Assembly: GCA_000092065.1 (NCBI GenBank) | Contig: CP000587.1 | DNA length: 64,000 nucleotides | Reading direction: 5' to 3' (one strand) | From: Ostreococcus lucimarinus | Lineage: Eukaryota | Part shown: in pieces, positions 3,991 to 42,300 of the stretch | Layout of the letters: every line of letters starts with the position of its first letter | Position numbering within the stretch: position 1 is the first letter of the stretch | Notes under the pieces: model-generated | The model's database searches: none | The model's input: the letters and a program-made list of their open reading frames with translations, nothing else | Told to the model about the DNA's origin: nothing | Translations under genes and position numbers: made by a program

Positions 3991-4278
3991 ACGATGCCGC
4001 GCGCGACGTCGAGCGACGACGCGCGACGGCGCGCGCGCGACGGCGCGACGCGCGTCCGGAGACGCGCGCGACGACCGCGCGGATCGTGGCGAGGCGTCGC
4101 GTGCGCGTGCGCGGTCGTCGCGACGGCGACGCGCGAGGCGAGGGGTGCGTTCGGGACAAGATGCGACGACGACGACGACGACGACGCGACGACGCGACGA
4201 CGCGACGACGCGACGGAAGAAACGGAAGAAACGGAAGACTGACGCGTCGGCGCGCGACCAGGCGGCATCGCGAGCAAA

Positions 4279-5040
4279 ATGGCGCTGAAGTACGGGAAGG
4301 AGGCGCTCAGGGAGGCGCGCGCGGCGCGCGAGGCGGGACGCGCGCCGAACGGGTGGACGGCGCGCGCGGTGGATTGGGCGACGCGAAAGCTCGAGGAAAG
4401 ACGCGACGACGACGAGGAGGGCGATGGTGGACGCGCGCGGAGCGCGTTCGAGGGAAGCACGGACGAGGGATGGCGGGAGACGGAGGATTGGGATTCGGGC
4501 GCGAGCGAAGACGCGGACGCGAGCGGAGACGCGGCGACGAAGGACGCGGACGCGGGATCGGTGACGCGCGATGAGGACGAGACGGAGAGCGACGGCGCGG
4601 GCGTGGGAATGCGAGTGATGTATCCGGAGACGTTCGATGAGGTCACGGCGGCGGCGAGGAACGAGGCGGGGGCGTGCGCGAGCGACGGTTCGAGCGACGA
4701 CGTCGAGCGATGGCTCGTCGTCGCGTGCGCGCGGAGTTCACCGACGTGTCGCGATTTAGCGCCGAGACTGGCGCTGATGAGCCATGATAGCGCGTTCACG
4801 TCGAGCGAGGGCGCGGGGTACGGCGTCGGGTGGGTCGATTGTACGCCCGAAAACGCGAGAGGATGGTGCGTCAACCGACTCGGCGCCAAGGCGGTGCCGA
4901 CGATCGTCGCCATCGCGCGCGGGCGAGAAGAGACGTACGACGGCGGATTCAAGGGAGATTTCATGCGAGAAATTCGGCGTTTCGCCACGTCTCACGCGGC
5001 GTCCGCGTCGACGAGTTGCTCGGCTTCGGGCGACGAGTAA
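4279..5040 (+). CDS. Thioredoxin-fold protein of the TXNDC9 / phosducin-like-3 type (acidic N-terminal region, Trx fold without CxxC)
   Basis: ERWLVVACARSSPTCRDLAPRLALMSHD...AVPTIVAIARG resembles TXNDC9 [27 protein letters not shown]...VIPTLALLKDG. Genuine ATG at 4279. Confidence 0.55.
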   Translation: MALKYGKEALREARAAREAGRAPNGWTARAVDWATRKLEERRDDDEEGDGGRARSAFEGSTDEGWRETEDWDSGASEDADASGDAATKDADAGSVTRDEDETESDGAGVGMRVMYPETFDEVTAAARNEAGACASDGSSDDVERWLVVACARSSPTCRDLAPRLALMSHDSAFTSSEGAGYGVGWVDCTPENARGWCVNRLGAKAVPTIVAIARGREETYDGGFKGDFMREIRRFATSHAASASTSCSASGDE

Positions 5041-15086: not shown

Positions 15087-15507
15087 CGCGGTCGCGAATC
15101 GTTCGACGAGATCGTTCCCACCGCGCGTCGCGCTCGACCGCGCGCGCTTCGGGCGCGCTTCGAGCGCGGCGACGACGCGCGCGCGTTCGCTCGCGCGCGC
15201 GCTCGACCGCGCGCGTCGTGTGCGCGTGCGTGCGCGCGCGTGTGCCGACGGCGCCGCGCGTTAACCTGAGCGTCACACGCACACGCGCGACGCGCGCGAT
15301 GTCGAGCGCGAAGCGCGGTCGACGCGAGGTGCGTCGCGCGCGCGACGACGCGCGACGCGACGCGCGCGCGAGCGCGCGGATGCGAGCGAGCGAGCGCGCG
15401 AGCGCGCGGATGCGAGTCGGATTGCATCGGATCTTTACGCGAGCGATGCCGAACGCGCGCGGCGCGTCGCTCGCGAACGATGCGACGAGACGACGCGGGC
15501 GACGCGG

Positions 15508-18096
15508 ATGAGACGACTGACGACGCGAGCGAACGCTGGACGCGCGCAGGACGGCACGCACGGCGGCGATGGACCGACGGCGGAGGATTTGGACGAACTG
15601 CGCGACGTGATCATTCACTGCGACGGGTCGATGGACGTGCTCGGGGGACTGTCGAGCGACATCGCGAGGGACGTGCCGGTGTTGGGAGATCGCGCGACGG
15701 CGTTCGTGATGGAGTGCGTGACGGAACTGCCGGTGAAGACGCCGGTGTACGCGGCGCTGGCGGGACTGATCAACGCGGAGGCGAGAGAGTTCGGCGCGCA
15801 AGTGGTTGAAGCGACGCGAGAGGCGCTGATGGAGTGCTTGAATGGGGATGATCTGACGCAGCGAGTGCGAGCGCGAGTGTTGACGCGGTTTTTGGTGATG
15901 CTGAGCACGGTCGGAGTCGTGCAACGAAGGGAGGTGATGGAATATTTGGCGTCGCTGTTGTCCTCGGCGCAAGCGTCGGCGAAGAAAGGCGCGGCTGGGT
16001 GGCAGCCTCGCGCCGATTGGCTCGCCTACGTCGCGCTTTCCGCGCTTCCGTGGGGGGGTGAGTTCTTTTCAAAATCCGAGAGCTCAAACGACTTTGAGGC
16101 GCTTTTGGACATGGCGGAGGCGTATTGCAAAATCAGAACGCCGAACTCGGACGCGGCGTCGATCATCATCAAGTCCGCGGACGGCATCGAAGTCGATTGG
16201 TTCGTGGACATGTGCAATCGTCTCAGTGCGGCGCGCACGGACGGGCGCTGGCACATCGCGTCCATTCCCGCCATCGCGGAGCCGTTTGTGGAGAAGCTGG
16301 CGAGCACGGCGAACGCGCACTCCTTGAACGGGATTGAAATCCCGGAAAAGACATTCACCAACCACGCTGAGGCGGCGGCAAAGTATCCGGGTCGATCCAT
16401 GTTGAGGTATGTTCATTCGCACGCGCGACGCGCATCTCTCGTTCGATGGCGATGAAGATTACATGTATATCTCGTTAATCCCCTGACCTCGTGCTGATAT
16501 GAAAACCAAATACTTTCCGAGCCAAGCGTTTTTCGCGAGGTCGAAAGATTTGAATGGCTCGATCGATTCGCGATGACTGACTGACGCTTTTCACGACTTT
16601 TCCCGCGCAGAATTTTGGAACCGAGCTTCACAGAGGGAACCGGCAACGCCGACGCGTGGGGCCCGCTCGAACGCTTCGTTGCGGAAGAGTACATCATCGA
16701 CACGATTTGGGCGTTTGAGCCGGGTTATCGCCGTTCGGCAACAATTCCGGTGACTGAACAGCTGGCATCGCTTCCGCTTCCCGCGGACCAGCCCGAGCAG
16801 TGTCAGTTCATGGTCGCCGAGACCCTCTTCGCCGAGCTCTTGTCGTTGCCGAAGCCATCCTTCACTCCGGTGTTGTATCACATCATCATTCAAGATTTGT
16901 GTAAAATCATCCCGACGTTCCCGCCCAAGATGGCGAAGACAGTCGGGGCGATGTTCAGGGCGATCGACCGCATGGATGTCGGCGCTCGCGATCGTCTCGC
17001 GAGCTGGCTCGCTCACCAAATCTCGTGCTTTGATTTGGTGTGGCCTTGGTCGAGCTGGAAGCACGTCATGGAGCAGCCCGACGATGCCCCGCAACGCACG
17101 TTCTGCAAGGAGGTGTTGCGCAAGTTGTGCCAGCTCAGTTTCTTCGAGCGCGTGCAAAAGTCTCTCATCGAAGAGCTGCATCCGCTTCTTCCAGGGCAGG
17201 CTGGCATCAACGCCGAGTACGTCGACGCGGTGGCGCAGGAACCCGTCTTCGGCGCGTTGAAAGAAATGCTCGCTAGCAAGAAGGAAGGACACGAAGTTTT
17301 GGGTTGGATTCAGTCGCAAGCGGCCAGCGCGAGCCCGGACGTCTTGCTCCGAGCTCTCGCCGTCGCCACGCTCGAGCGCGGGCAAAAGTGCATTACCCAT
17401 CACGACGTTTTACTCAAGCGTTACGCACTTCCTATTCGTGACTTGGTGGAGAAGGCGGGTGGTGAGGTATTAGTCGATGCCGCGGCTGGGGTCTGGCGAG
17501 GCCACCCGCAGATGGGCCCGATCGCCATCGAACGATTATTAGCTCTTGATTTAGTAACGCCCGCCGCCGTGGTCAACTGGCTGCTGCAGCGAGCCGCCGC
17601 TTTCGGCGAGGACGACACGTACGAGATCGCCAACGTAGTGTGCGAGTTCGTGTGTGCGAGTAAAGAACAAGCGATCGGAAAGCGTGAAGCGCTGTTGCGC
17701 AAACTTCGCGAGGCGGAAGCTGAAGCCGCCGCCGCCGGACAAGCCGCGACGGAGCTCACCGAGCAAGGTCGCGTCTTCGAGGCGCAGCAAGCCCAAGCCG
17801 CCGAAGCGAGCGCCGTGGAGGAGATCTCCATCCACGAAGCCGCTTTGGCCTCCGCCGACGCGCCCGTCGATCGCTGCGCCGCCATCACTCGCGAGATTTG
17901 CCTCAACCTTTGCGGCGGTCTCGTCAAAGCCGCCTCCGGAGGCGCCTCCGCCGCCGTCGCCGACCGCATCCTCGCCTTCGTCCGCAAGTACCGCGCCGAG
18001 CTCGCTTTGGACGCCGATGCCGTCATCAAAGCCGCGGGCACGAAGAAAACCGCCAAGTCCGCCGTCGCCGCCGCTTTAGGTGTTCATTTGAAATAA
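15508..18096 (+). CDS. NCBP1: Nuclear cap-binding protein subunit 1 (CBP80/NCBP1), two exons: 15508-16406 and 16611-18096
   Basis: ADWLAYVALSALPWGGEFFSKSE matches human [63 protein letters not shown] matches VLRVMFEVWRNHPQMIAVLVDKMIRTQIVDCAAVANWIF. Splicing out 16407-16610 keeps the frame (AG|a = Arg) and gives about 795 aa against 790 in human. Confidence 0.85.
16407..16610 (+). other. Spliceosomal intron (204 nt) in CBP80
   Basis: Donor GTATGT. Branch-like CTGAC lies 24 nt before the acceptor. The acceptor is ttttcccgcgcAG. It is phase 2 and frame-preserving. The first ORF hits a stop 49 nt into the intron. Confidence 0.8.
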
Positions 18097-18236
18097 ATAA
18101 TCGACATAGTGCCCGAACGAGACGCCGACGCAAGCCCTAGGGCATAAGCCCAGGGATAAGCCACAAACAAAATGAACGCCCCCACGATTGCGTCGCGCCG
18201 CACACACCGACGCCCGCGTCCACGGTCATCGTCACC

Positions 18237-18946
18237 ATGCACGCCGCGTTGTCGTCCAAGCTCTCCACCGTCGCTCTGCGCATCGCGCCCGCGCGCGTCG
18301 ACGCGCGCGCGCCGCGTCGCGCCGTCATCGAGTGCGCGCACAAGAAGGGGACGGGGTCGACGAAGAATGGCCGCGATTCCAACCCGCAGTACCTCGGCGT
18401 GAAGAAGTACGGCGAGGAGAAGGTGCAGGTCGGATCGATCATCGTTCGTCAGCGAGGGAACAAGGTGCGTGCGCGTCGAGCGCGCGCGAGAGAGAGCGCG
18501 AGCCGCGGGCGCGAGGCGACGCGCGCGACCCTCGGATTCAGGGTTTCCGCGAACGCGACGAAAGCGGGGTCCAGCGACGCGCGACGCCGACGCGAGGGTC
18601 GTCGAACGCGGTGAATGATTCGAAAATCGCGCGTTTCTCGCGTTTCGATCGCGCGCTGACCCGTGCGCGCGCTTTTCGTCGCTCGCAGTTCCACGCCGGC
18701 GCCGGCGTCGGCACCGGGAAGGATTTCACCCTCTTCGCGCTCAGAGACGGCGAAGTCATGTTCAAGGTTGGCGCGAACAAGAAGAAGTTCGTCACCGTCG
18801 TCGATACGGTCGACCGTTCCGGTCGCGCCGACGGTCAACCGACGCGTAAGGATAAGCGCAAGGCGATGTACTCGCCGCGCGCCGTCGTTCGCGCCGCGCT
18901 AGAGGAGGGCATCTCCGCGCCGGGCGTCGAGCGCGTCGCTCGTTAA
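18237..18946 (+). CDS. Organellar (bacterial-type) ribosomal protein bL27, copy 1, two exons: 18237-18464 and 18689-18946
   Basis: [43 protein letters not shown] | [27 protein letters not shown] matches bacterial bL27 ([51 protein letters not shown]). There is a 35-40 aa presequence. Confidence 0.8.
18279..18464 (+). repeat. About 186-bp tract nucleotide-identical to 19216-19401 (5' part of the bL27 paralogs)
   Basis: Identical run from ..gcatcgcgcccgcgcgcgtcgacg.. to ..cgtcagcgagggaacaag. The antisense track ORFs 18137-18442 and 19119-19379 have identical translations. Confidence 0.8.
18465..18688 (+). other. Spliceosomal intron (224 nt) in bL27 copy 1
   Basis: Donor GTGCGTGCGCG (phase 0). 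CTGAC lies 27 nt before the acceptor ttttcgtcgctcgcAG. Exon 2 resumes with FHAG, exactly where intronless copy 2 continues. Confidence 0.8.
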
Positions 18947-19158
18947 CTCGCGCGCGTCCTAGTCCCGCGCGCGCGCGTCGTAGATCCATCCATCATCACC
19001 CTAGACACCGTGTATCGCTTAGTGAACGTCATTATTTCAATCTCCCGCGGCTTCGCGCTCCGCCGTGGCTTCGCGCGCGTCGTCGGCGCTAAGCCCTAGC
19101 CCTACTACCTCTTCGACGTCATCGCCATCGCGTCGTCGTCCGCACACGCGCGCGCGAC

Positions 19159-20076
19159 ATGATCGCCGCCGCCTCCGCCCTCGCGTCGAGGTTCGCCGTC
19201 GCGACCGCGCTCGATCGCATCGCGCCCGCGCGCGTCGACGCGCGCGCGCCGCGTCGCGCCGTCATCGAGTGCGCGCACAAGAAGGGGACGGGGTCGACGA
19301 AGAATGGCCGCGATTCCAACCCGCAGTACCTCGGCGTGAAGAAGTACGGCGAGGAGAAGGTGCAGGTCGGATCGATCATCGTTCGTCAGCGAGGGAACAA
19401 GTTCCACGCGGGCGACGGCGTCGGGACGGGTAAAGATTTTACGCTGTACGCGCTCAGGGACGGCGAGGTCAAGTTTAAAGTCGGCGCGAATAAGAAAAAG
19501 TTCGTGACGATCGTCGACGCGGTCGATCGATCGGGACGCGCGGACGGTGAACCGACGAGAAAGGATAAGCGCAAGGCGATGTACTCGCCGAGAGCGGTGG
19601 TGCGGGAGGCTTTGGAGAATGGGACGGCGGCGCCGACGAGGACGGTGGTGGCGACGCGACGCTCGGCGGCGGCGGACGCGCCGGCGAAGGCGGAGAAGAC
19701 GGCCAAGGCGCCGGCGAAGGCCAAGGCGGCGACGACGACGGTGAAGAAGACGCTCACCAAGTCTGGCTCCGCGGCGGCGCCCAAGGGGTTCTACCGCCAG
19801 GTGAGCAAGGTGCGCTACTGTAACCTGAGTCTGTTGCTCATGGACGAAGCGATGGAAGCCAACGGCGTCCTCACCGAGGCTGACGTCAAGAGTTTCCACG
19901 ACCACATGCTCGACGGTCAAGGCGTCACCCCGACCGAGCTCGCGACGTTGGAATTCGTTCTCAACGGCGGTGGAGGCAAGTACTCTTACGTCGTCGACGA
20001 CGCCGCCAAGGCGTTTCTCGAGGCGACCATCGCCGCGGAGCGCGCGACGCTCGAATCCGAAGGCGGCGCTCGGTGA
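19159..20076 (+). CDS. Organellar ribosomal protein bL27, copy 2: intronless, with an extra C-terminal extension of about 145 aa (A/K/T-rich linker plus a further domain)
   Basis: The bL27 core is as in copy 1. After ...[14 protein letters not shown] comes [24 protein letters not shown], then [56 protein letters not shown]. Confidence 0.8.
19216..19401 (+). repeat. Second copy of the identical bL27 5' tract
   Basis: See 18279-18464. Confidence 0.8.
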
Positions 20077-20260
20077 GCGTCGCCAGGCACGCGCTCGAAT
20101 TGATTTTATAGCCCGTCGATCCATCTAACCACTTGAATTACGACGTCGTCGAACGTTTCGCCAACCTCCGCCGCGCGCGTCCGATTCAAACCGCGCGCCG
20201 TTTCAATCGCGCCCGCACACCGCGCCGCGCTCGGCCTCGAACGCCGCGACCACGCGACGC

Positions 20261-21337
20261 ATGATGATGAAGATCTCCCCGACGTCCTCGCGCACCGCCT
20301 GCGCGCGCGCGGCGATCCAATCCGCGTTCCGTCGCACCGACGCCGCGGCCGCGCCGTCGGCGCATCGGCTGTCGTCGAGCGCGCCCGCGCCGGCGTCGCT
20401 GCGCGCGTCCGCGTACGGACGACGACAGCGCTCGAGCGCGATGGTGGCGCGCGCGATGGCGGCGGAGATCATCGACGGGAAGGCGATCGCGCAGGCGGTG
20501 CGGGACGAAGTTCGAGACAAGGTGACGGCGATGCGAGCGAAAACCGGCAAGGCGCCGGGACTGGCGGTCGTGCTCGTCGGTGAGCGGAAAGACTCGCAAA
20601 CGTACGTGCGGTCGAAGAAAAAGGCGTGCGAAGAGGCGGGGATCGAGTCGTTCGGGACGGATTTGCCGGAAGACGCGACGGAGGAGGAGGTGCTCGCCGT
20701 CGTGGCGGCGTACAACGCGGATCCGAACGTACACGGCATTCTGGTGCAGTTGCCGATGCCGAAGCACATCAACGAGGAGCGCGTGCTCGGGGCGATCGAT
20801 TACGAAAAGGATGTCGATGGGTTTCACCCGCTGAACATCGGACGATTGTCGCAGCGTGGTCGCGAACCGTTGTTCGTGCCGTGCACGCCGCGCGGCTGCA
20901 TCGAACTCCTCGAGCGCACCGGCATCCCCATCGCGGGTAAAGAAGCCGTCGTCGTCGGGCGATCGAACGTCGTGGGCACGCCCGCTGCGCTTTTACTTCA
21001 GCGTCGAGACGCCACGGTGACGATCGTGCACTCGAGAACGCCGAACCCTGAGGAAATTTGTCGCCGAGCCGACATCGTCATCGCCGCGTGCGGGCAGATG
21101 GAAATGGTCAAAGGGTCTTGGCTCAAGCCCGGGTGCGCGGTGATCGACGTCGGAATCAACGCCAAGGACGACCCGAGCAAAAAGCGCGGCTACCGCTTGG
21201 TCGGTGACGTCGAGTACGACTCCGCGGCCGAGGTGGCGGGCCACATCACCCCCGTGCCGGGAGGCGTCGGTCCGATGACCATCGCGATTTTGTTGCAAAA
21301 CACGCTCGAAGGCGCGGAGCGCGCGTTCGGGCCGTGA
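20261..21337 (+). CDS. MTHFD: Bifunctional methylenetetrahydrofolate dehydrogenase/cyclohydrolase (FolD / MTHFD), with presequence
   Basis: IIDGKAIAQAVRDEVRDKV...LAVVLVGERKDSQTYVRSKKKACEEAGIES...HGILVQLPMP is the classic FolD signature. Also GKEAVVVGRSNVVGTPAALLL and PVPGGVGPMTIAILLQNT. Confidence 0.9.
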   Translation: MMMKISPTSSRTACARAAIQSAFRRTDAAAAPSAHRLSSSAPAPASLRASAYGRRQRSSAMVARAMAAEIIDGKAIAQAVRDEVRDKVTAMRAKTGKAPGLAVVLVGERKDSQTYVRSKKKACEEAGIESFGTDLPEDATEEEVLAVVAAYNADPNVHGILVQLPMPKHINEERVLGAIDYEKDVDGFHPLNIGRLSQRGREPLFVPCTPRGCIELLERTGIPIAGKEAVVVGRSNVVGTPAALLLQRRDATVTIVHSRTPNPEEICRRADIVIAACGQMEMVKGSWLKPGCAVIDVGINAKDDPSKKRGYRLVGDVEYDSAAEVAGHITPVPGGVGPMTIAILLQNTLEGAERAFGP

Positions 21338-21427
21338 GCCGTAGCCGATGCGTGATAATAACACACTACATTATTAGAAGAGCAAAAAGTAAGTCGCGTT
21401 TGTGCACACGAACGTCCGTGACGTTGC

Positions 21428-21438
21428 GAAAAAAAGAA
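21428..21438 (-). terminator. Pol III T-run terminator (TTCTTTTTTT) directly after the tRNA 3' end
   Basis: Plus strand aaaaaaagaa at 21428-21437. Confidence 0.55.
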
Positions 21439-21602
21439 TGCGGTTAACCGGGATCGAACCGGTGACCTTCGGATCGCTCTCCGACGTTCGTCGGGGAAGG
21501 GGAAGTGGGATCTTTATGATCTCAGTCGTGTTGATGTCGTGTTTGAGCTTCGAGAGCTGTACGTTATGAGACCGACGCTCTAACCAACTGAGCCATAACC
21601 GC
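21439..21602 (-). tRNA. Elongator tRNA-Met (anticodon CAT) with an intron of about 90 nt after the anticodon loop
   Basis: Minus strand: GCGGTTA TG GCTC AGTTGGTTA GAGC G TCGGT CTCATAA [intron about 21474-21563] TCCGA AGGTC ACCGG TTCGATC CCGGT TAACCGC A. The acceptor stem is a perfect 7 bp with G1:C72. The D stem is 4 bp and the T loop is TTCGATC. A T-run lies immediately 3' and a TATA-like element about 25 nt 5'. Confidence 0.6.
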
Positions 21603-21618
21603 TAGGCTTACGAAACCC

Positions 21619-21628
21619 TATTATATAG
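21619..21628 (-). promoter_or_regulatory. TATA-like element (CTATATAAT) about 25 nt upstream of the tRNA 5' end
   Basis: Plus strand attatatag. Confidence 0.35.
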
Positions 21629-21760
21629 GATCTCCATGTGTAAAAAGGCGATAAATTTAAAGTCCCGGGCGCGCGCGCGCGCGCGCGCGTCGTGTTACGG
21701 TTTCGCGCGCGCGCGACGCGCCGCCGCCGCCGCCGACGGCGTCACTCCCGCGCGCGCGCG

Positions 21761-23113
21761 ATGCTCGCGTCGTCGCTCAGCGCGTCTCGCGCCGTCGCGC
21801 CGCGCGCCTCGCGCGCGTTCCGCGACGCCCGATCGAGCGCGCGTCGCACCGCGCGACGCGCGCGCGCGCCCGCGCGCGTCGCCGCCAAGCTCGAGGACAC
21901 GCCGAAATTCGTCCGCGATTCGCGCGACGACGCCAAGGCGGCGCAGCCGCCGGACGCGGGACGAACGGCGGCGGACGTCGAGGCGTTTATCGCCGATCTC
22001 TCGGGCGACGCGAGGGGGGACTCGCCGGTGACGCAGACGCTGAACAAGGAGTTTGGATTGTCGGACGGCGCGACGCCGTTCGTGCGCGTGCGCGACGGAC
22101 GAGGGTCGCTGACCAAGGTGACGCTGACGCACCCGAACGGATCGTACGTGGACGTGTATTTGAAGGGAGGAAACGTCGCGAGCTGGGTGCTGGCGTCGGG
22201 GGGGGAGGTGCTGTACGTGCCGGATGATGCGAGCTTTAAAAAGCACGCGCCGACGGACGGGGGAAACCCCGTGTGCTTTCCGCAATTCGGCGCGGGAGGC
22301 GAACGACCGGGGTCCGTGGGAGCGGCGAAGATGCCGGAGGACGGATTCGCGAACCGAATGGAATGGCGAATCGGCGAGACGGGGACGTACGCGTCGAGCG
22401 ATGGAACGTCGTGCCCGTTCGTGACGCTCGAGTTGACGGACGACGACTCGAGTCGCGCCGCGTTCAATCACAACTTCAAGTTGACGCAAGAAATTTCGCT
22501 CGAGCACAACGCGTTGAAGGTGAAGATGACGTGCGCGAATACCGGTTCGACGGCGTTTGAGTACGCGATCGGACGCAAGGCACACATTGCGGTGAGCGAC
22601 GTGCGCGAGGGCGACGTGTATTACGTCGGTTTCGAAGACTGCGTCGTCCTGGACAACTGTTTGCACCCGACCAAGCCGCGCGTTCGGTTCACCAAGGACC
22701 TAGACGCCATGTCCGAACGTTGTTTCAAGCTCGACGGTCCGACGGATAAGGTGTACTTGGCCACGGAAGATCTCGCCACGGGTGTCGAAGTTGGCACCGG
22801 GTGCACCGTGTTCGCCCAAAACCTCTCGGGCGAGCGCGGATGCGTGGACCGCGCGGTGTTCAACCCGTGGGAAGCGTCGCCGAAGACGTACCGCTGGTAC
22901 GCTGGATTAGGCATAGGTAACTTTGGCAAGCTTCGCGTGGCGGAACCGGACACGAAGTCGTCCACGGAGATTCAATACAAAGTCGTGGACTCCACGCCGA
23001 GCATCGGCATTCGCGAAGATTTCGAGTTGTTCGAAAAGGTGAACGCGCGCAACATGTTCGCGCGGCCGAAGATTGATTTGAGCAACGCCGAGCTGCCGGA
23101 TGACATGCAGTAA
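21761..23113 (+). CDS. Glucose-6-phosphate 1-epimerase (aldose-1-epimerase family, YMR099c-like) with N-terminal targeting-like extension
   Basis: GSLTKVTLTHPNGSYVDVYLKGGNVASWV...GGNPVCFPQFG is the family motif GG.P.CFPQFG. Ser/Arg-rich presequence MLASSLSASRAVAPRASRAF. ATG at 21761. Confidence 0.8.
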   Translation: MLASSLSASRAVAPRASRAFRDARSSARRTARRARAPARVAAKLEDTPKFVRDSRDDAKAAQPPDAGRTAADVEAFIADLSGDARGDSPVTQTLNKEFGLSDGATPFVRVRDGRGSLTKVTLTHPNGSYVDVYLKGGNVASWVLASGGEVLYVPDDASFKKHAPTDGGNPVCFPQFGAGGERPGSVGAAKMPEDGFANRMEWRIGETGTYASSDGTSCPFVTLELTDDDSSRAAFNHNFKLTQEISLEHNALKVKMTCANTGSTAFEYAIGRKAHIAVSDVREGDVYYVGFEDCVVLDNCLHPTKPRVRFTKDLDAMSERCFKLDGPTDKVYLATEDLATGVEVGTGCTVFAQNLSGERGCVDRAVFNPWEASPKTYRWYAGLGIGNFGKLRVAEPDTKSSTEIQYKVVDSTPSIGIREDFELFEKVNARNMFARPKIDLSNAELPDDMQ

Positions 23114-23270
23114 TTAGTCGAGATTCCAGGAGGAGTCGTGTAAGCAATATTAGAAGTTTTCATTCGAAACGTCGACTAATGAACGGCGCGCTAGTACGTT
23201 CGAACTCCAAAAGACGACGCGGATTTGCTAATGATGGCAGATACGCGCGAGCGAGCGACATTGTGCGCGC

Positions 23271-24017
23271 TCACGTCGGCGCCGCCGCCGCATCGCCCGC
23301 GTACTCGCCCGGCGGCTTGAGATCCGGCCAGTCGCCTCGACATCCGAACCGCACGTACAAATTCTTCTTCCCGCACAACTGATCGTCCGCGTCCACCAAA
23401 GCGTCGATCCCCGCCAACACCTGATCCGCCGCGGCTTCACCGTCGACGGCGACCCCTTTCTTCACCACCACGCGCACCTCGCTCAGCTCGTACGCCTGCC
23501 GCTGCGGCGCGCTCTCGTCCGCCCCCTCCGCGTCCACCCACACCGTTATCGCCCCGAACAACCACGTCCAGCAGTCCCCTCGCGCGGTCGCGCCCCGTCC
23601 TCCCCCGCACGTCGCCACGCACAGCCTCAAAAACGTCGCCAACTGTTCGTGCGCGCTATTCTCCAGCACCAACGCCTTCGCGTCCTCGCTCATGTCGTCG
23701 TCGTCGTCCATCGTCATCCCCTCCTCCGCCCCTCTCGCCATCGTGCTCTCCAGCAGCGCCGGCACGCTCACGGGCGAGTACGCCAACCGCACCGCGAGCG
23801 CTCGCGCGACGACGTCGTTCGCGTCGGCGTCATCACCGACCACGACGACGCTCACGCCCTTGAGCTTCGCGGCGACGGTTTCGCCTTTCGTCGCGCGCGT
23901 CGCCGTCGCGCGCGCCCGCGCGCCGGTCCGCGCGCCGCGACTCGCGTCCTTCTTCCGTCCCGCGCCCGCGGCGGGCGCGCCGCGCGGGTGCACCGCGCCG
24001 AGGGACGCGGCGACCAT
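23271..24017 (-). CDS. Hypothetical protein (248 aa, acidic DDDDDMSED patch); no family recognised
   Basis: Genuine ATG and protein-like composition. The opposite-strand ORFs here are Arg-rich or low-complexity. Confidence 0.4.
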   Translation of the reverse strand: MVAASLGAVHPRGAPAAGAGRKKDASRGARTGARARATATRATKGETVAAKLKGVSVVVVGDDADANDVVARALAVRLAYSPVSVPALLESTMARGAEEGMTMDDDDDMSEDAKALVLENSAHEQLATFLRLCVATCGGGRGATARGDCWTWLFGAITVWVDAEGADESAPQRQAYELSEVRVVVKKGVAVDGEAAADQVLAGIDALVDADDQLCGKKNLYVRFGCRGDWPDLKPPGEYAGDAAAAPT

Positions 24018-24152
24018 GAGACGCGCTCGGGTTTGCGGACCAGCCGCGGCGCGGCGAGCGAAAGGCGAACGAACGGCGAACGAACGGCGGTCATCGAACG
24101 ACGCGCGCGTCGAGGACTCGGAATCGGCGCGAGAAAAAATGAGAAATCGTCG

Positions 24153-26567
24153 TTACGCCGCGAACGCGCGCGAGAGAACGTCTCGCGAGCGGTCGAGCTG
24201 GCGCCGAAGACGCGCTCGCGAGAGGCGTAAATCGTCGAGCGCGCGACGCTCGCGAGACGTCTTGTCCGCGTGAAGACGCGCGTTGCGGTCGAGACGCGCG
24301 GCGATGGCGGCGGCTTCGCTGATGTCTTCTCGCGTTCGAGCGGAAACTGCGCTGGATGAGGCCTGAGGGCCGGTGTGGAAGAGGAAGCTTTGAAGACGCT
24401 TGCTCACGCGGAGGAGGGCGACTTCGACGGCTCGGGCGTCGACGTCTTCGCACCGTAATCGAAGGACGCGCGTTTCCCACTTCACACGCTCGATTTCATC
24501 TCTTGTTGTCGCGTTCGCGCGCTCAGCGCGCGCTTTGGCGGCGTAGGATTCACGAAGCTTTGCGTTGATGGCGTCGATGCGCGCCTTGGGCACGAGGATG
24601 ACGTCGTCTCGCTCGAGCGCGTCGGCGGTGGATTTTAATGGAATCTCCACGTATCCGCGATCGAGATGCGCGGCGCAATCGATGTCATACGCTCGAGTCC
24701 ATCGTGCCGATTGCGCCGTCTTTCGATCGTGTTCGTGCCGATTGGCGATGTCTGCCAGCTCTCGCGCGGTTGCCTCGAGCGCGCGCATCTTCTCCGTCGT
24801 GCGCGCGTGCGCGTCTTTGGCGTCTCGGAGCTCGCGCTCGAGCGTCGCGCGTTTCGCGCGCGCCAACACTAGGAATCCCCACCACCGATCGTCTAACCTT
24901 TGAGGGAAAACAGGAATCTTCTTACTCGCGGCTTCTTCAACCGTGCGTGCGATGGCGTCTTGACGTTGATACAACGCCTGCAGCGCGTCCAAATGCACGC
25001 TGCTCGCCGGATGATCTTGCACTTCGCGTCTGAACGCACGCTGAGCCGCCTTCAACGCGAATGTGGCCGAATCTAACAGTCGCTGTGTTTCCTCAACGTT
25101 CGCCGCATACTCACGCACGATTTCTGTCGCGCGATGAACATCCGAGAGCGCCTCTCGAACGCGCGCTGCCTCCTCGTCGGATTTGCCGTCGAAATCGCCC
25201 GCGAGATGGCGCTCGTGGAGCCGTCGAGCTATACGCGCGCGCCGCAAGTCAAACATAACGATCGCAAACTCGGTATTTTCGCGCTCGATCGCGAGGTCTC
25301 GAATTCTTTGATTGTACGCGCCGGTGATCTCGCTCGCCTCTTGAAATAACTTTCTCAGAGCGAGTCGCGTCGCCACTCTCCACTCGTCTCGAGCGCGACG
25401 TTTGTTTTGCAACATTTGTTGATACGTCGCCAGCGTGCCCATTTGATCCCCAGTGAGCGAACGCAGTTTTCGCAACTCTTCGGGATCACGATCATCGTCG
25501 CTCGGCGCGAGAAACTCGGGACGTTCGATGCGCGCGGTCGCCGCCGCCGTGCTCTCGAAATCCTGGCGCTTGTCGCACGCCTCCGCGTCGATGCGCCCTG
25601 TTTCGTCCACTATGATATCATCACCCATCATCGTTTTCAGAACGTTTGCAACGCCTTCGTCCGAATGCATGATTGATGTTTGATCAGTCCCCGCACCTTC
25701 GCTTGGTCCGCCATCCTCCGCCTTCCCGCTCCCAGCGAGCGATTGGATGCGCCACTCGCTCGCGTCGTCGCCGTCGGCGACGATTGCTCGCATCGCTGCC
25801 GAGTCCCACCACTCCGTCAATGTGTCCGCTTCGGTGGCAACGAGCGCATCATCGTTATTCACATCAGGAAACGATTTACGAGCGGCGCACACCCTGCGAT
25901 CGATCGAGCGTAGACGCTCGATTATCTCGCCTCGCTGTGCGAGCGCCGATGCGTGCTCGGCGTTGAATTCTTCGCGCGCAGACGCGGCTCGACATCGCAA
26001 CGTGTGACACTGCGTCATCATCCGTCTAGGATACACCAAGTCCGCGCACGCGTGCATAGTCTCTCGCACTCGCATCGTCGCCGAAGAGGCCGTGCCGGAG
26101 GAATCATCGTCGTTCGTCGTCGCCTTCGCGCGTCGCTGCGACTCGAGCTCGAGCTCGACGCGACGAAGCACCCTCGCCTTGACCCCTCTCATCTCCCTCG
26201 CCTCGCGCGTCGCGCTCAAGGGGAAATTCCACACCTTTGGTGCCGTCTTGCGATCGAATCCGCGCGCCGTCGTCGCGAACGCGCGCACGTCCATCGTGAG
26301 TCGACGCACTTTCGCCTCGTTGGCGCGGCGAAGCGTCGCGAGTGATTCTTTGGCGTCATCGATGATTCGTCGCACGTAAGCGTCATACACGAGCTCTACC
26401 GCCGCCGTAGCGTCGGCGTCGATGGTGATATCGACATCTCGCGATTTAGCGCGCGTTGAGACGTCGTTGACGTCGGTGCGCAAGCGATGGAGTCGGGATC
26501 TGAGGGACGCCGCGCGCGCGCGTTGTCCATTCGTCTTCTCGGGACGGGACGGGTCGAGCGAAGACAT
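24153..26567 (-). CDS. About 800-aa coiled-coil protein (E/R/A-rich heptads throughout); family not recognised
   Basis: Continuous 2.4-kb ORF. The first plausible ATG (MSSLDPSRPEK) is at 26567. The first 57 residues of the track ORF are probably 5' read-through. Confidence 0.5.
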   Translation of the reverse strand: MSSLDPSRPEKTNGQRARAASLRSRLHRLRTDVNDVSTRAKSRDVDITIDADATAAVELVYDAYVRRIIDDAKESLATLRRANEAKVRRLTMDVRAFATTARGFDRKTAPKVWNFPLSATREAREMRGVKARVLRRVELELESQRRAKATTNDDDSSGTASSATMRVRETMHACADLVYPRRMMTQCHTLRCRAASAREEFNAEHASALAQRGEIIERLRSIDRRVCAARKSFPDVNNDDALVATEADTLTEWWDSAAMRAIVADGDDASEWRIQSLAGSGKAEDGGPSEGAGTDQTSIMHSDEGVANVLKTMMGDDIIVDETGRIDAEACDKRQDFESTAAATARIERPEFLAPSDDDRDPEELRKLRSLTGDQMGTLATYQQMLQNKRRARDEWRVATRLALRKLFQEASEITGAYNQRIRDLAIERENTEFAIVMFDLRRARIARRLHERHLAGDFDGKSDEEAARVREALSDVHRATEIVREYAANVEETQRLLDSATFALKAAQRAFRREVQDHPASSVHLDALQALYQRQDAIARTVEEAASKKIPVFPQRLDDRWWGFLVLARAKRATLERELRDAKDAHARTTEKMRALEATARELADIANRHEHDRKTAQSARWTRAYDIDCAAHLDRGYVEIPLKSTADALERDDVILVPKARIDAINAKLRESYAAKARAERANATTRDEIERVKWETRVLRLRCEDVDARAVEVALLRVSKRLQSFLFHTGPQASSSAVSARTREDISEAAAIAARLDRNARLHADKTSRERRALDDLRLSRARLRRQLDRSRDVLSRAFAA

Positions 26568-26801
26568 TCTTCGTGTTTCGCACGCGAGCGAACGCGAACG
26601 AGCGAGTGAATTGAACTCGCGAGAAGCCGTGCCGCGCACGACGACGACGATGAGTAAAGACTGTGCGCCGAGCGTTCTAAATTTGGTATCCACGCTAACA
26701 ACGAGGCGGTTGCCGTAACGATCGATGATCCAAAACAATCACGATCACGATCACTCACGGCGTTCGCCACGACATCTACCCAACTAATGACTAAGGAGAG
26801 A

Positions 26802-27385
26802 TCACTTCCCGTACACGCTCCCGCCGAGGGAACCGCCGAACGAACCGCCGACAGAACCTTTCCCGTCGCCTCCGTCTTCCTCCCGCTGAATCGCCTCGCG
26901 TCGTTCTAAAAACTTACTCACCGCCTGATCCACCGCATCGCGTCCCGTGAGCAACAGCCTGTTCACCATCTCTGGATCACGCTCGAGTCGTCCTGCCTCG
27001 AACTCTTTCCTCGCGGAATCGCGTATGACGTCGCGCCACACCCGTCCGCGCTCGTCCCGCCACACGAAGAACACCGACGCGCGTATAACGGCGCGATATA
27101 GACTCAGCGCCTCTTTGCGAGTCGTCAGCAGCGCTTGACGTACGTGGTTCTCGTCGTTTTTTAAGTACTCGCCGCGTTTATGGTCCTGCGCGCGACGACA
27201 GGACGTCAGAAGTTGCTTTCGAGCGGGACATCACGCGCACGCACCAGATTAGCTTCGATGATTTCTATCGTTTTCCCGCCGTCTTTGTCGTCTTCGTTGA
27301 GCGATGCGCGCGACGACGAGGCGACAGCGCGCGATGAGCGCGCGGCGGCGCGCGAGAGAGCGGCGAGGCGAATGAGGTCTCGCAT
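26802..27385 (-). CDS. LYR-motif (Complex1_LYR / ISD11-LYRM-like) protein, two exons 27385-27245 and 27185-26802, with a G/S-rich C-terminal tail
   Basis: The upstream in-frame region has no ATG, so the exon model is inferred. Exon 1 (MRDLIRLAALSRAAARSSRAVASSS..., presequence-like) joins exon 2 (DHKRGEYLKNDENHVRQALLTTRKEALSLYRAVIRAS...VWRDVIRDSARKEF..DPEMV) in frame. The LYR tripeptide lies within LSLYRAV. Confidence 0.6.
27186..27244 (-). other. Short spliceosomal intron (59 nt) in the LYR gene
   Basis: Minus strand GTGCGTGCGCGtgatgtcccgctcgaaagcaacttCTGACgtcctgtcgtcgcgcgcAG. The donor is the same 11-mer as the bL27 intron. CTGAC lies 18 nt before the AG. Phase 0. Confidence 0.65.
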
Positions 27386-39302: not shown

Positions 39303-42300
39303 CTAATCTAAAATCGAAGACACGGTATCCTGCACTCCAATTCTCTTTGCGAGGATGTCACTGAACGCCTCGTTCCAGATGAGGACAGTCTGCATCGTCG
39401 CCACGGGAAGCAGCGACATGAAGAACAATATAGTAAAGATTATTAAACCGAAGAACTTGTCCATCTCTTTGTACCAGAAGTCTGAAAACCCTCGCGCTGC
39501 GGCCAAGCCGCGTCGCGCGCGGTACACAAATGGTTGCAACGCGCGACGCACACCGTTTCCTCGAGGTTCCGGTTCGCCATCCACTGTTTTCATCGGGAGC
39601 CAGCTTTCACCGAAAGTAATGATACTCTTGTCACTCACGAAGGAGCACGCCTCGATGAATATCGCCACGACGCACCAAGCGCCGAGCCCAGTCATGAACC
39701 ACGTGCGGAACAAGCTGTTGCTGCCGGTTTCGACGTGCAAAGCGAAAAAGTACAACCCATTCCAGACGAGGAAGAGTCCCAGACGTACCAGTCCGCGATA
39801 CACGCTAATTTTCCACAGTTTGTCGGGGAATTGTAACCACGCGTCGCGTGCGAATACCACTGAGTTCATCGCAGATGTGTACAAGAACACGACGAAGCCC
39901 ATTGCAATCGTCGCAGCGGCGATGCGACCCGAGTTCACGCTGAACTGTTCCATTTGCGTCAGCCCTGTGTATAGCGCGCTGCCGTGCAGAGAACCAATCA
40001 CAACAAGCAAGAGGATGACACGTCCGAAACTACTCATGAATAAGACGCCCGCTTTGTTGAATAAACCAATTCTGTTTCGATAGTTGGTGTTCATCGTCGA
40101 GTGCCACTCTTTCCAGGAACCATTCGCGATTTTGGGCTTGTCGAAAGTACCATCGAGCCAGTCTCGCCAATCGTTCCAGCTATTTCGCATCCAGTAAGTG
40201 TTCGTGCTTTGTGGCGAAAACCACCAGGGCGTTATGATGATGCAGATACCAAAGCTCCAAACCGACCAAGAGTACAGCAGTGATTTTGGAAGCACCGTGT
40301 TCGCGTGAAACAACAGTAAAAGAAGCAACACTTCCATACCAAAGTACAGGTGAGACTTGGCGTACAAGCCGTAAAGTACCACCATGTTCGCATTTTGTAG
40401 CACAAAACCCCGCTCGGTAGCGATATACTGCGCTTTACCGAAAAGGAGACCAACCATGTAATTGTAACCTTTCGTCGTCATGGCAAAAATGTTGAACGCC
40501 CACGAACCACGAACAAGTGACGAGGCGGTGTATTCGATACCATCGCGCAATCCTCTATCCATCACCATCTTCAAGAAGAGAGGTAGGACTGTTAGTAATC
40601 CTAGCTGGATCGCATAAATGGAGTTGTAATAACCACCTTCTTCTTTAGACAGCGACAGTGTTGTTTGTGTCTCTGTCATTTTGAAATAACGATAGACACG
40701 ATAGATTTCAAGATCTGCAATCGCGAGCCCGGCGTGCACTAGAATGTACAAATAAACACACCAAGCCGTCTGCATAACGCTAATGAAGAAGCCTGGGCCA
40801 CTAAAGTACATAGACATCATTCTGAAAAAGTCCATCGAGCGGTGTAGTCTGTAAACGTCACGAGACATTGAGATTGTCCCCGCAGAGCCTGAAATCTTTT
40901 GTTCGAAACCATTTACGGATGTAAAACCCATATCTCTTCCTTTACCCACCTCGATGAACTCTTCAAATAACACTCGGCCGCCACGAACGATCGCGTTCAC
41001 GCCACCGAAGAAATCCTCGGCGACGTGGATCATCTTTGAGGCCTTAGACACGCCACCATTTGTCATGGTGAATGCCTTGTCCCACACGTCGGGGTGACCG
41101 TAGTGGAAGCGCACCATGAGTGGCCACGTCATGAAACGTTGAAACGTTTGGAAAATGAACTCTGAAATCGCCGCGAACTGTGCGACGGCGCCCGTAGTCT
41201 CACTAAATATCACCTCAGGAAAGCCGACGAGGACAACGTCCTCAGAGAAAACATCGAGCAAGTTTCGCATCTTCAACGCCTCCGGGAAGTAGCCATCTTG
41301 ATTCATGTCCAGCGTTTGCAGGTAAGCACCTCTGCTGAAAATGACGGCGTGGTTTTGGTTTTCAGGTTTTCCTTCTCCAATTATTGGATTTCCTGGTAAT
41401 TCTACCTTGCACGCGAGAGATAACGTTCTATTTTCTCGATCGCATCCGACGAGACACGAAGCGAACGTGTCGTTTGTGTCAGACTTTGTCTGCACGAAGC
41501 ACACTCGAAGCTCTGGATGATTCAAGATGAGCTCGTTTATATCCTCCGCTTTCTGTCTATCAGCGGAACCTTGTGGAGCATTCAGCATATTTCCGTACAC
41601 TTGGCAAGACACGAGATATTCGAACTTGTCGCAGACCAATGTCTCAATCTCATCTTCGTCGTACCCTTCCGCTCGCGCAAGAAAGCGCAACGCTGCCCCA
41701 TAACTGCAGACACCACGCACGCAGCGACTGAGCGACTGCGTATGGTCGCTCGTCCAGATGCGGAGTTCTTCCCAGTACTTCTCAGTCACTGTGGCGTCGT
41801 CGCACGCCAAGGCCCCAACGCGCTCTTTGAAGTTTTCGTACTCATCTGGATACGTTGCTTGGATGATGGACAGCAGCGTCTTTTGATCTTCAAGAGGCTT
41901 TATCAATTCATCCTTCACGTAAGAAACCTCTTCAGCGTAATAAGGCGTGAACGCAGTCCACGCACGCATGTTACGCAACTTGGTGGGCATTTTCAGCGTC
42001 GCAAAGCTCAGAGAATTGGCAAAAAACATAAGTTGCCGACGAGCTTCGAGATTACGCGGCTCACCACCAGGATTGATGTTGTTCATTGAATTCAACAAAC
42101 AATCGACAATCTTCCGGTTGTTTACCAGCGTCGCGGAGGCGGACACTACTCGCACATGCTCAGTGTCACGCAGCGCATCGATGCGCACCATTTCAAGAAG
42201 TTGCGAATAAAGCTGCGACACACGATACTTTCTCTGATTGTTTGCGTTCGACCAACGACCATCGTTTTCCATGGCAAACGAACAGATCTTCCGAACCGCG

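What the first reader, a model, noticed from the sequence alone, without database searches (positions are those of the whole stretch)
16407..27244. Three inferred introns share a strict grammar (GTGCGTGCGCG or GTATGT donor, CTGAC branch, ..cgcAG acceptor); one reveals a hidden first exon of an LYR protein
Seen in sequence: CBP80 (16407-16610, 204 nt), bL27-1 (18465-18688, 224 nt) and the LYR gene (27186-27244, 59 nt, minus strand) all splice in frame. All three have CTGAC 18-27 nt upstream of a YAG acceptor preceded by a short pyrimidine/CG tract. The bL27 and LYR donors are the identical 11-mer GTGCGTGCGCG. The LYR model was found by looking for this grammar: the LYR reading frame has no ATG for about 50 codons upstream and starts right after a ..cgcgcAG. 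Inference: a yeast-like constrained branch point in a GC-rich, intron-poor genome. The repeated identical donor 11-mer could point to a shared origin (introner-like propagation), although the intron bodies do not look similar.
Basis: partly seen in the sequence, partly recalled or inferred. Interest (0 to 1): 0.5.

Follow-up and report, generated by a model that had tools for sequence, protein, structure and literature searches.

The report
Known Ostreococcus intron signals, rediscovered
The three introns are real, but their shared signals are the splice-site rules already published for the tiny green alga Ostreococcus lucimarinus, not evidence of a spreading intron family; one of the introns also carries a small nucleolar RNA.

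Summary
The window is a nuclear chromosome of Ostreococcus lucimarinus CCE9901. All three introns sit exactly where stated. Polyadenylated mRNA contigs confirm CBP80 16407-16610. Spliced contigs confirm LYR 27244-27186. The RefSeq protein XP_001418652.1 confirms bL27 18465-18688.

The "grammar" is not new. Irimia & Roy (2008) reported GTGCGTG donors, (G)ACTGAC(G) branch points in 87% of introns, CGCAG acceptors and a branch-to-AG distance of 20-35 nt for introns outside chromosome 2 of this species.

The introner idea fails:
- The intron bodies are no more alike than shuffled controls.
- O. tauri has introns at the same positions, and Bathycoccus shares the LYR one.
- The O. tauri orthologues carry different donors.
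- The shared 11-mer is the consensus 7-mer plus CGCG, which is very common in this genome.

The hidden first exon of the LYR gene is correct. The gene appears unannotated in O. lucimarinus, but O. tauri has it annotated with the same intron.

New points:
- CBP80 has a second, upstream intron (15329-15549), and its true start codon is at 15299.
- The atypical CBP80 intron hosts a conserved box C/D snoRNA with the U30-type guide. It is orthologous to the unclassified O. tauri RNA Ot-mncR124.

The parts
15299..15328 (+). CBP80 (NCBP1) true first coding exon, MSSAKRGRRE
   Evidence: mRNA contigs L018/L019 join 15328 to 15550. A similar mini-exon is present in two other Ostreococcus lineages: MSKRSRLE in L015 and MSSNANAKRRRGE in L010.
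15329..15549 (+). GACTGACG (15515-15522) ... CGCGCAG. It contains the ATG at 15508, which is used only when the intron is retained.
   Evidence: Removed in L018/L019, and L019 carries a poly(A) tail. Retained in poly(A) contigs L004/L005. The O. tauri orthologue is annotated at 790 aa, the length of the two-intron model.
15550..16406 (+). CBP80 exon 2
   Evidence: Pfam MIF4G.
16407..16610 (+). CBP80 intron 2 (204 nt, 49% GC): GTATGT donor, GACTGACTGACG branch site (16575-16586), CGCGCAG acceptor. It hosts a snoRNA.
   Evidence: Precisely removed in four mRNA contigs, L004, L005, L018 and L019. Present at the same codon in L012, L015 and O. tauri. Absent from Bathycoccus.
16447..16524 (+). Box C/D snoRNA candidate (78 nt). 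Terminal stem UGGC/GCCA; C box AUGAAGA 16452-16458; guide AUCUCGUUAAUCC 16469-16481; D' CUGA 16483-16486; D-like CCGA 16517-16520.
   Evidence: A 40-nt core is 100% identical in two lineages with 74% and 80% CBP80 protein identity, while the rest of the intron has diverged. The stem covaries: U-A changes to C-G. The guide matches the 12-nt antisense element of the Rfam snoU30 consensus. It has a 13-nt complement in eukaryotic LSU rRNA. The O. tauri orthologue equals the expressed 83-nt RNA Ot-mncR124.
16611..18096 (+). CBP80 exon 3 through the stop codon. The poly(A) tail is added about 21 nt later, near 18117.
   Evidence: Pfam MIF4G_like and MIF4G_like_2.
18237..18464 (+). Plastid bL27-1 exon 1
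   Evidence: The spliced product is identical to XP_001418652.1. Pfam Ribosomal_L27, E = 7e-33.
18465..18688 (+). bL27-1 intron (224 nt, 70% GC): GTGCGTGCGCG donor, CTGAC at 18656-18660, CTCGCAG acceptor
   Evidence: O. tauri has a 180-nt intron at the same GNK|FH site, with the different donor GTACGAGAAGA. The intron is absent from the paralogue bL27-2 and from Bathycoccus L27.
18689..18946 (+). bL27-1 exon 2 through the stop codon
27245..27385 (-). LYR gene exon 1 (47 codons): an Arg/Ala/Ser-rich N-terminus, then the conserved segment DKDGGKTIEIIEANL
   Evidence: The exact 174-aa spliced protein occurs in contigs L001-L003. The N-terminal segment aligns with the annotated O. tauri and Bathycoccus proteins.
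27186..27244 (-). LYR intron (59 nt): GTGCGTGCGCG donor, CTGAC at 27209-27205, CGCGCAG acceptor
   Evidence: An intron lies at the same codon in O. tauri (62 nt) and in Bathycoccus (151 nt).
26802..27185 (-). LYR gene exon 2 through the stop codon; Complex1_LYR domain
   Evidence: Pfam PF05347 scores 33.4 bits against a cut-off of 24.8.
15226..15236 (+). Third exact copy of GTGCGTGCGCG, not used as a donor
   Evidence: Contigs L004/L005 read straight through it.

Best explanation
These are ordinary U2-type spliceosomal introns of three nuclear genes of Ostreococcus lucimarinus: the cap-binding protein subunit CBP80/NCBP1, plastid ribosomal protein bL27, and a mitochondrial-type LYR-motif protein.

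They look alike because nearly all introns outside chromosome 2 in this intron-poor genome conform to a narrow consensus. That consensus is donor GTGCGTG, branch site (G)ACTGAC(G), a gap of 20-35 nt, and acceptor CGCAG. The canonical spliceosome reads it.

The introns are old. Their positions are shared with O. tauri, and the LYR position is also shared with Bathycoccus. Their sequences have drifted independently towards the species consensus. The identical 11-mer is that 7-mer consensus followed by CGCG, one of the commonest tetramers in this CpG-rich genome.

Shown here:
- the splice junctions;
- conservation of intron positions;
- lack of similarity between intron bodies;
- the canonical 5' end of O. 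tauri U1.

Inferred: the cause of the constraint is selection for strong signals where introns are few. That hypothesis comes from the literature.

The one intron with an atypical donor (GTATGT) and low GC is most likely kept because it encodes a box C/D snoRNA.
For: Identity of the window: exact protein matches to O. lucimarinus CCE9901.

Junctions:
- mRNA contigs, some with poly(A) tails.
- The RefSeq model for bL27.

Published grammar for this species: GTGCGTG donors, ACTGAC in 87.2% of EST-confirmed non-chromosome-2 introns, CGCAG acceptors, branch-to-AG distance 20-35 nt (PMC2483917).

All four confirmed introns in the window fit it.

Age of the introns:
- O. tauri has LYR, bL27 and CBP80 introns at the same codons.
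- Bathycoccus has the LYR intron at the same codon.
- Other Ostreococcus lineages have both CBP80 introns.

No family relationship: all pairwise intron-body alignments score z < 2 against dinucleotide shuffles.

Frequency of the extra tetramer: P(CGCG | CGTG) = 0.07, and CGCG occupies 8% of intron positions.

O. tauri U1 starts with the canonical ATACTTACCTG (supplement of PMC7671301).
Against: - The 11-mer is mildly over-represented in the window: 3 copies against 0.71 expected, and only 1 of 100 shuffles reached 3. I could not measure genome-wide whether positions +8 to +11 carry information of their own.
- The LYR contigs L001-L003 have no poly(A) tail of their own. I infer their mRNA origin from the CBP80 contigs that carry poly(A) tails and have neighbouring run accession numbers.
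- bL27 splicing rests on the RefSeq model, the restored protein motif and exact 161-aa products in other assemblies. I did not align a transcript contig for it myself.
Confidence: 0.9

Rival explanations
1. Introner-like propagation: the bL27 and LYR introns derive from one mobile intron-generating element, and the shared 11-mer is its remnant.
For: The 11-mer donors are identical, and the 11-mer occurs 3 times against 0.71 expected in the window. Introner elements exist in the related genus Micromonas (PMC4540971, listed).
Against: - The intron bodies are unrelated: z = -0.05.
- The lengths are 224 and 59 nt.
- Both intron positions pre-date the split of O. lucimarinus from O. tauri, and the LYR one pre-dates the split from Bathycoccus.
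- The orthologous O. tauri donors differ from each other and from the 11-mer.
- The first 7 nt are the species-wide consensus.
Confidence: 0.03
2. The donor signal in O. lucimarinus really extends beyond +7, with GCGCG at +7 to +11 being selected, for example through extra contacts with U1, U6 or a protein.
For: Two of the three GTGCGT donors confirmed here carry exactly GCGCG, and the third carries CGCGC. Irimia & Roy report G at +7 as part of the consensus.
Against: - CGCG runs fill the intron bodies and the whole genome, so no selection is needed.
- The O. tauri orthologues lack the extension.
- O. tauri U1 is canonical.
- A non-donor copy of the 11-mer lies 100 nt upstream of a used donor and is ignored.
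Confidence: 0.08
3. The contigs that lack the introns come from DNA of intron-less strains, not from spliced mRNA.
For: The contigs come from environmental sequencing runs whose library type I could not look up. L001 spans three neighbouring genes.
Against: - L004, L005 and L019 end in poly(A) tails that are absent from the genome.
- Dozens of genomic contigs of the same population retain the introns.
- Two splice isoforms of CBP80 exist, with intron 1 retained or removed.
Confidence: 0.02

Closest known systems
Constrained non-chromosome-2 introns of Ostreococcus lucimarinus (Irimia & Roy 2008, PLoS Genet 4:e1000148)
   Same: Same species and the same signals: GTGCGTG donor, (G)ACTGAC(G) branch site, CGCAG acceptor, branch-to-AG distance of about 20-35 nt. 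The four introns confirmed here are plain members of this class.
   Different: Nothing essential. CBP80 intron 2 has the minority donor GTATGT. The bL27 and LYR branch sites read GCTGAC and TCTGAC rather than ACTGAC.
Hemiascomycete yeast introns (GTATGT / TACTAAC)
   Same: An intron-poor genome with near-invariant donor and branch-site motifs. Some snoRNAs are intron-encoded.
   Different: The motif sequences differ: GTGCGTG and CTGAC here, rather than GTATGT and CTAAC. The constraint arose by convergence, not by shared ancestry. O. lucimarinus also has a second, relaxed intron class on chromosome 2.
Introner elements of Micromonas (Worden 2009; Simmons 2015, PMC4540971)
   Same: The host is a related Mamiellales alga.
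   Different: Introners share their whole body sequence across hundreds of copies and are lineage-specific insertions. These introns share only splice signals, and their positions are conserved across species.
U30 / SNORD30 box C/D snoRNA (Rfam RF01283 snoU30; Arabidopsis U30 guides 25S Am2322, PMC8053127) and O. tauri Ot-mncR124 (PMC7671301)
   Same: - The element in CBP80 intron 2 has the same 12-nt antisense sequence, AUCUCGUUAAUC, placed next to a D' box.
- It has C/D architecture and an intronic location.
- Its O. tauri orthologue is an expressed 83-nt RNA with exactly the predicted ends.
   Different: - Overall Rfam scores are below threshold: 16.7 bits for snoU30 and 20.1 for snoR14.
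- The D' box lies 3 nt further from the guide. The +5 rule therefore points to the first U of GGAUUAACG, not to the A that U30 targets.
- The C box (AUGAAGA) and D box (CCGA) are imperfect.
- The O. tauri study left the RNA unclassified.

Membership tests
O. lucimarinus constrained spliceosomal introns (non-chromosome-2 class) | GT-AG boundaries with precise removal from mRNA | tested here: met
   for CBP80 introns 1 and 2 and for LYR. for bL27, whose spliced product equals the RefSeq protein.
O. lucimarinus constrained spliceosomal introns (non-chromosome-2 class) | Donor consensus GTGCGTG | tested here: met
   bL27 and LYR have GTGCGTG, CBP80 intron 1 has GTGCGTC, and CBP80 intron 2 has the minority form GTATGTT.
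O. lucimarinus constrained spliceosomal introns (non-chromosome-2 class) | Branch-site motif (A)CTGAC about 20-35 nt upstream of the AG, and a CGCAG acceptor | tested here: met
   All four introns have CTGAC, and the two CBP80 introns have GACTGACG. The distance from the branch A to the AG is 19-28 nt. All four end in CGCAG.
Introner elements / introner-like elements | Sequence similarity across the whole intron body between copies | tested here: not met
   Local alignments against 300 dinucleotide-preserving shuffles give z < 2 for every pair and z = -0.05 for bL27 against LYR.
Introner elements / introner-like elements | Recent, lineage-specific insertion, absent from orthologues in sister species | tested here: not met
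   O. tauri has introns at the same positions. Bathycoccus shares the LYR position. Other Ostreococcus lineages have both CBP80 introns.
Introner elements / introner-like elements | Many copies genome-wide, with terminal repeats or target-site duplications | not testable with these tools
   Only 64 kb of the genome is available here. A whole-genome intron set is needed.
Box C/D snoRNA | C box (RUGAUGA) and D box (CUGA) brought together by a terminal stem | tested here: inconclusive
   - The C box is AUGAAGA, or GUGAGGA in L012, one mismatch in each.
- The D box is CCGA in three lineages and canonical CUGA in L012.
- A 4-bp terminal stem is present, and its outer pair covaries: U-A in the window and L012, C-G in L015 and O. 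tauri.
Box C/D snoRNA | An antisense element of at least 10 nt complementary to rRNA, ending next to D or D' | tested here: met
   13 nt, GGAUUAACGAGAU, at about position 2310 of a eukaryotic LSU rRNA (locus L054). The duplex energy is -19.2 kcal/mol. The O. tauri version extends the pairing to 14 nt. The LSU sequence tested is not from Ostreococcus itself.
Box C/D snoRNA | Accumulates as a discrete small RNA and directs 2'-O-methylation | not testable with these tools
   For O. tauri, the literature reports an 83-nt RNA, Ot-mncR124, with exactly these ends at low abundance. No data were found for O. lucimarinus, and methylation has not been mapped.
Complex1_LYR (LYRM) protein family, PF05347 | Pfam match above the gathering score, containing the L-Y-R tripeptide | tested here: met
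   33.4 bits against a cut-off of 24.8. LSLYRAV is invariant in the orthologue alignment. The subfamily is unresolved: the best match among solved structures is only a weak hit to NDUFA6, E = 0.005.
Bacterial-type ribosomal protein bL27, PF01016 | Full-length Pfam match that is restored only after splicing | tested here: met
   112.9 bits over model positions 1-79 of 79. The unspliced reading runs into stop codons.

The most novel reading that the evidence does not exclude
CBP80 intron 2 survives in this intron-poor genome because it is the only source of a U30-type box C/D snoRNA. Its O. tauri orthologue has so far been listed only as the unclassified RNA Ot-mncR124. Because its D' box is shifted by 3 nt, it would methylate a U in the LSU rRNA stretch GGAU*UAACG, not the A that U30 targets in plants and animals. 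That would be a lineage-specific rRNA modification. The probability that it is a genuine C/D snoRNA is about 0.8. The probability given here is for the shifted target site.
Probability: 0.35. Interest if true: 0.3.

Novelty: already known. Interest (0 to 1): 0.15.

Why it matters
For the finding as stated, very little. The splice-signal grammar of O. lucimarinus was described genome-wide in 2008. O. tauri already has all three orthologous genes annotated with these introns.

Practical value:
- It corrects the O. lucimarinus annotation. The RefSeq CBP80 protein stops at the 315-aa read-through XP_001418650.1, whereas the real protein is 790 aa from three exons.
- The LYR gene appears to be missing from the O. 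lucimarinus GenBank protein set.

Small positive results:
- A conserved intronic snoRNA explains why the one atypical intron is retained.
- Four orthologous sets of introns show directly that the strict signals evolve in place. The same intron carries different donors in sister species. This supports convergence on a consensus rather than common descent.

Tried and rejected
1. Pattern statistics. I therefore did not use it as proof.

2. Mononucleotide shuffles made several intron pairs look similar (z up to 8). This was a CpG and low-complexity artefact, and it vanished with dinucleotide-preserving shuffles.

3. The third 11-mer at 15226 as an alternative donor paired with the acceptor at 15549. 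I rejected this because no ATG lies upstream, splicing would remove both start codons, and contigs L004/L005 read through it.

4. A co-evolved U1 snRNA as the explanation for GTGCGTG. The 5' end of O. tauri U1 is canonical.

5. The Rfam snoR14 hit. The snoR14 consensus guide in the Rfam alignment is different; only the AAUCC-CUGA part matches. By guide sequence, the real match is snoU30.

6. The bL27 exact-protein look-up for genomic context found nothing. I used the CBP80 exon-1 protein instead.

7. The supplement of the O. tauri snoRNA paper has no text match to the guide sequence. The link to Ot-mncR124 was made through coordinates.

8. ARAGORN found no tRNA, although Rfam finds one with a long intron.

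9. LYR subfamily assignment through solved structures gave only a weak NDUFA6 match.


Full report
**What the window is**

Exact look-up of the spliced products identifies the source as a 783-kb nuclear chromosome of Ostreococcus lucimarinus CCE9901. The spliced bL27 protein is identical to XP_001418652.1, annotated as "Plastid ribosomal protein L27". The unspliced first CBP80 ORF is identical to XP_001418650.1. The window is 60-69% GC over most of its length. A 49% GC block at 40-52 kb lies inside one 4820-codon ORF.

**Checking the observation**

- Removing 16407-16610 joins ...GRSMLR to ILEPSF... and gives a protein with MIF4G, MIF4G_like and MIF4G_like_2 domains. The retained intron has in-frame stops.
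- Removing 18465-18688 restores the bL27 signature IIVRQRGNK|FHAG and a full-length Pfam match.
- On the minus strand, the LYR-domain frame is open for about 15 codons upstream of 27185 but has no ATG. Joining 27385-27245 to 27185 gives a 174-aa protein. Its N-terminus is Arg/Ala/Ser-rich, and it has a Complex1_LYR domain.

**Transcript evidence**

The exact 794-aa CBP80 and 174-aa LYR products exist in assembled contigs from public sequencing runs. Those contigs are 99-100% identical to the window and colinear with it, except that 16407-16610 and 27244-27186 are missing. The CBP80 contigs end in A-runs where the genome reads CGAGACG, so they are polyadenylated mRNA. Genomic contigs of the same population keep the introns. 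All three introns are therefore real.

A scan for the same grammar found a fourth candidate at 15329-15549. It reads GTGCGTCGCGC ... GACTGACG ... 28 nt ... CGCGCAG. It would join a 10-codon exon starting at ATG 15299 in frame to 15550.

- The resulting 790-aa protein is in the collection.
- Two contigs, one with a poly(A) tail, show the exact 15328|15550 junction.
- Two other Ostreococcus lineages have the same mini-exon and intron.
- O. tauri annotates a 790-aa CBP80.

The ATG at 15508 lies inside this intron. It serves as a start codon only in the intron-1-retaining contigs L004/L005. CBP80 therefore has three exons, and both isoforms occur among assembled mRNAs.

**Is the grammar new?**

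No. Irimia & Roy (PLoS Genet 2008, PMC2483917) devote a section to this species.

- Among 319 EST-confirmed introns outside chromosome 2, 87.2% contain ACTGAC and 66.5% contain GACTGACG.
- The 5' splice site has "the atypical consensus GTGCGTG".
- The 3' end prefers CGCAG.
- The branch-to-AG distance peaks at about 20-35 nt.

The four introns here are plain members of that class. Within the 64-kb window, the motif combination alone is only marginally enriched: 6 hits against 2.1 expected, p about 0.05, and 9 against 7.6 for a looser form. The pattern is a useful guide but not proof.

**Is the shared 11-mer a sign of common origin?**

The 11-mer occurs three times in the window against 0.71 expected. 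Two copies are donors. The third, at 15226, is read through in mRNA contigs. Four lines of evidence argue against common origin.

1. The first seven bases are the species-wide consensus.
2. CGCG follows CGTG in 7% of cases in the GC-rich part of the window, and it fills 8% of intron positions.
3. With dinucleotide-preserving shuffles, no pair of intron bodies is significantly similar. bL27 against LYR gives z = -0.05. Higher scores with simple shuffles were a CpG artefact.
4. The introns are old.
   - The syntenic O. tauri locus has an LYR intron at the same codon (62 nt, donor GTGCGCCCGCT, no CTGAC).
   - It also has a bL27 intron at the same GNK|FH site (180 nt, donor GTACGAGAAGA).
   - It also has CBP80 intron 2.
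   - Bathycoccus has a 151-nt LYR intron at the same codon.

Orthologous introns thus carry different donors in sister species. The identity seen in O. lucimarinus arose in place.

O. tauri U1 snRNA begins with the canonical ATACTTACCTG (supplement of PMC7671301). The unusual donor is therefore not matched by an altered U1, at least in the sister species.

**The LYR gene**

The hidden first exon is confirmed. I found no O. lucimarinus GenBank protein for this gene. The exact product is known only from assembled contigs, and a homologue search returned named entries for O. tauri, Bathycoccus and other green lineages but none for O. lucimarinus. O. tauri annotates the orthologue ("Complex 1 LYR protein", 161 aa) with the same intron. 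The segment DKDGGKTIEIIEANL that ends exon 1 is conserved. The subfamily is unresolved, because the best solved-structure match is a weak one to NDUFA6.

**A snoRNA inside the atypical intron**

CBP80 intron 2 differs from the others in having a GTATGT donor and 49% GC. Rfam gives sub-threshold C/D snoRNA hits at 16447-16524.

- Conservation. In orthologous introns from lineages with 74% and 80% CBP80 protein identity, the 40-nt core TATATCTCGTTAATCCCCTGACCTCGTGCTGATATGAAAA is unchanged. In O. tauri the same block differs at three positions. The rest of the intron is unalignable in all of them.
- Architecture. It has a terminal stem whose outer pair covaries (U-A in two lineages, C-G in two), a C box AUGAAGA/GUGAGGA, an internal CUGA, and a terminal CCGA/CUGA.
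- Guide. The 13 nt before the internal CUGA contain the 12-nt antisense element of the Rfam snoU30 consensus. They are perfectly complementary to GGAUUAACGAGAU. I verified that this sequence lies at about position 2310 of a eukaryotic LSU rRNA, using a contaminant rDNA unit. The duplex energy is -19.2 kcal/mol.
- Target. Arabidopsis U30 guides 25S Am2322 (PMC8053127). Here the +5 rule points 3 nt upstream of the equivalent A, to the first U.
- Expression. The O. tauri orthologue coincides to the nucleotide with Ot-mncR124 (chr7:215770-215852, 83 nt). Bousquet et al. 2020 detected this RNA but left it unclassified. That paper reports 72 intronic snoRNAs in O. tauri, so the phenomenon itself is known.
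- Distribution. Bathycoccus CBP80 lacks this intron.

**Other observations**

- bL27 has a tandem paralogue (19159-20076) that lacks the intron and carries a 150-aa C-terminal extension. O. tauri has only the intron-containing copy at this locus.
- The two copies are 100% identical over 194 nt, ending 8 nt past the exon junction, and then 75% identical. This fits gene conversion bounded by the intron site.
- A tRNA-Met (CAT) with a 92-nt intron lies at 21439-21602 on the minus strand.
- A further grammar-conforming candidate at 4145-4261 lies 17 nt upstream of an ATG and remains untested.

**Verdict**

The structural inferences are right: the three introns and the LYR exon. The general interpretation, constrained signals in an intron-poor genome, is right but was published in 2008 for this species. 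The introner speculation is refuted. What remains is a set of annotation corrections for O. lucimarinus and a modest new classification of a conserved intronic snoRNA.

Noticed in passing
window 16447-16524 (+), inside CBP80 intron 2: A conserved box C/D snoRNA candidate with the U30-type guide AUCUCGUUAAUCC, complementary to LSU rRNA GGAUUAACGAGAU. Its O. tauri orthologue is the expressed but unclassified RNA Ot-mncR124. The D' box is shifted 3 nt relative to the Rfam U30 consensus.
   Followed up: yes
window 15299-15549 (+): CBP80 has an additional 5' mini-exon (ATG at 15299) and a 221-nt intron that follows the same grammar. The ATG at 15508 lies inside that intron. mRNA contigs exist with the intron removed (790 aa) and retained (794 aa). 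RefSeq has only a 315-aa read-through product.
   Followed up: yes
window 18279-18464 plus 18689-18696, compared with 19216-19409: The tandem bL27 paralogues are 100% identical over 194 nt of exon 1, ending 8 nt past the intron site, and then only 75% identical. This looks like gene conversion bounded by the intron. The second copy (19159-20076) is intronless and has a 150-aa C-terminal extension. O. tauri has a single copy, with the intron.
   Followed up: partly
window 15226-15236 (+): A third exact copy of GTGCGTGCGCG lies 103 nt upstream of the real CBP80 intron-1 donor. It is not spliced in contigs that start upstream of it.
   Followed up: partly
window 4145-4261 (+): A grammar-conforming candidate intron (GTGCGTTCGGG ... 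GACTGACG ... 18 nt ... CCAG) lies 17 nt upstream of the ATG of a 253-aa ORF (4279-5040). It may be a 5'-UTR intron. No transcript check was made.
   Followed up: no
window 21439-21602 (-): Rfam finds a tRNA with anticodon CAT (Met) interrupted by a 92-nt insertion after the anticodon (54 bits). ARAGORN does not report it.
   Followed up: partly
window 39303-53765 (-): A single 4820-codon ORF coincides with a block of much lower GC: about 49% against about 64% elsewhere. It was not characterised.
   Followed up: no
window 18097-18117 (+); loci L004, L005, L019: The CBP80 mRNA has a 3' UTR of only about 21 nt before the poly(A) tail. Contig L001 runs across three neighbouring minus-strand genes. 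This reflects the extreme gene density, through overlapping or read-through transcripts.
   Followed up: no
locus L018, positions 1-29: The 5' end of one fully spliced CBP80 mRNA contig carries 29 nt (CCGGGTATTCCTTGTCAAGATGGTAAGAAG) that do not align to the window. It may be an adaptor, an assembly chimera or something else. I did not examine it.
   Followed up: no
locus L140 (O. tauri chr7) and L142 (Bathycoccus): The orthologous LYR introns in O. tauri (GTGCGC donor, no CTGAC) and Bathycoccus (GTACGA donor, pyrimidine-rich 3' half) do not follow the strict O. lucimarinus grammar. For this intron, the grammar is therefore specific to O. lucimarinus.
   Followed up: partly
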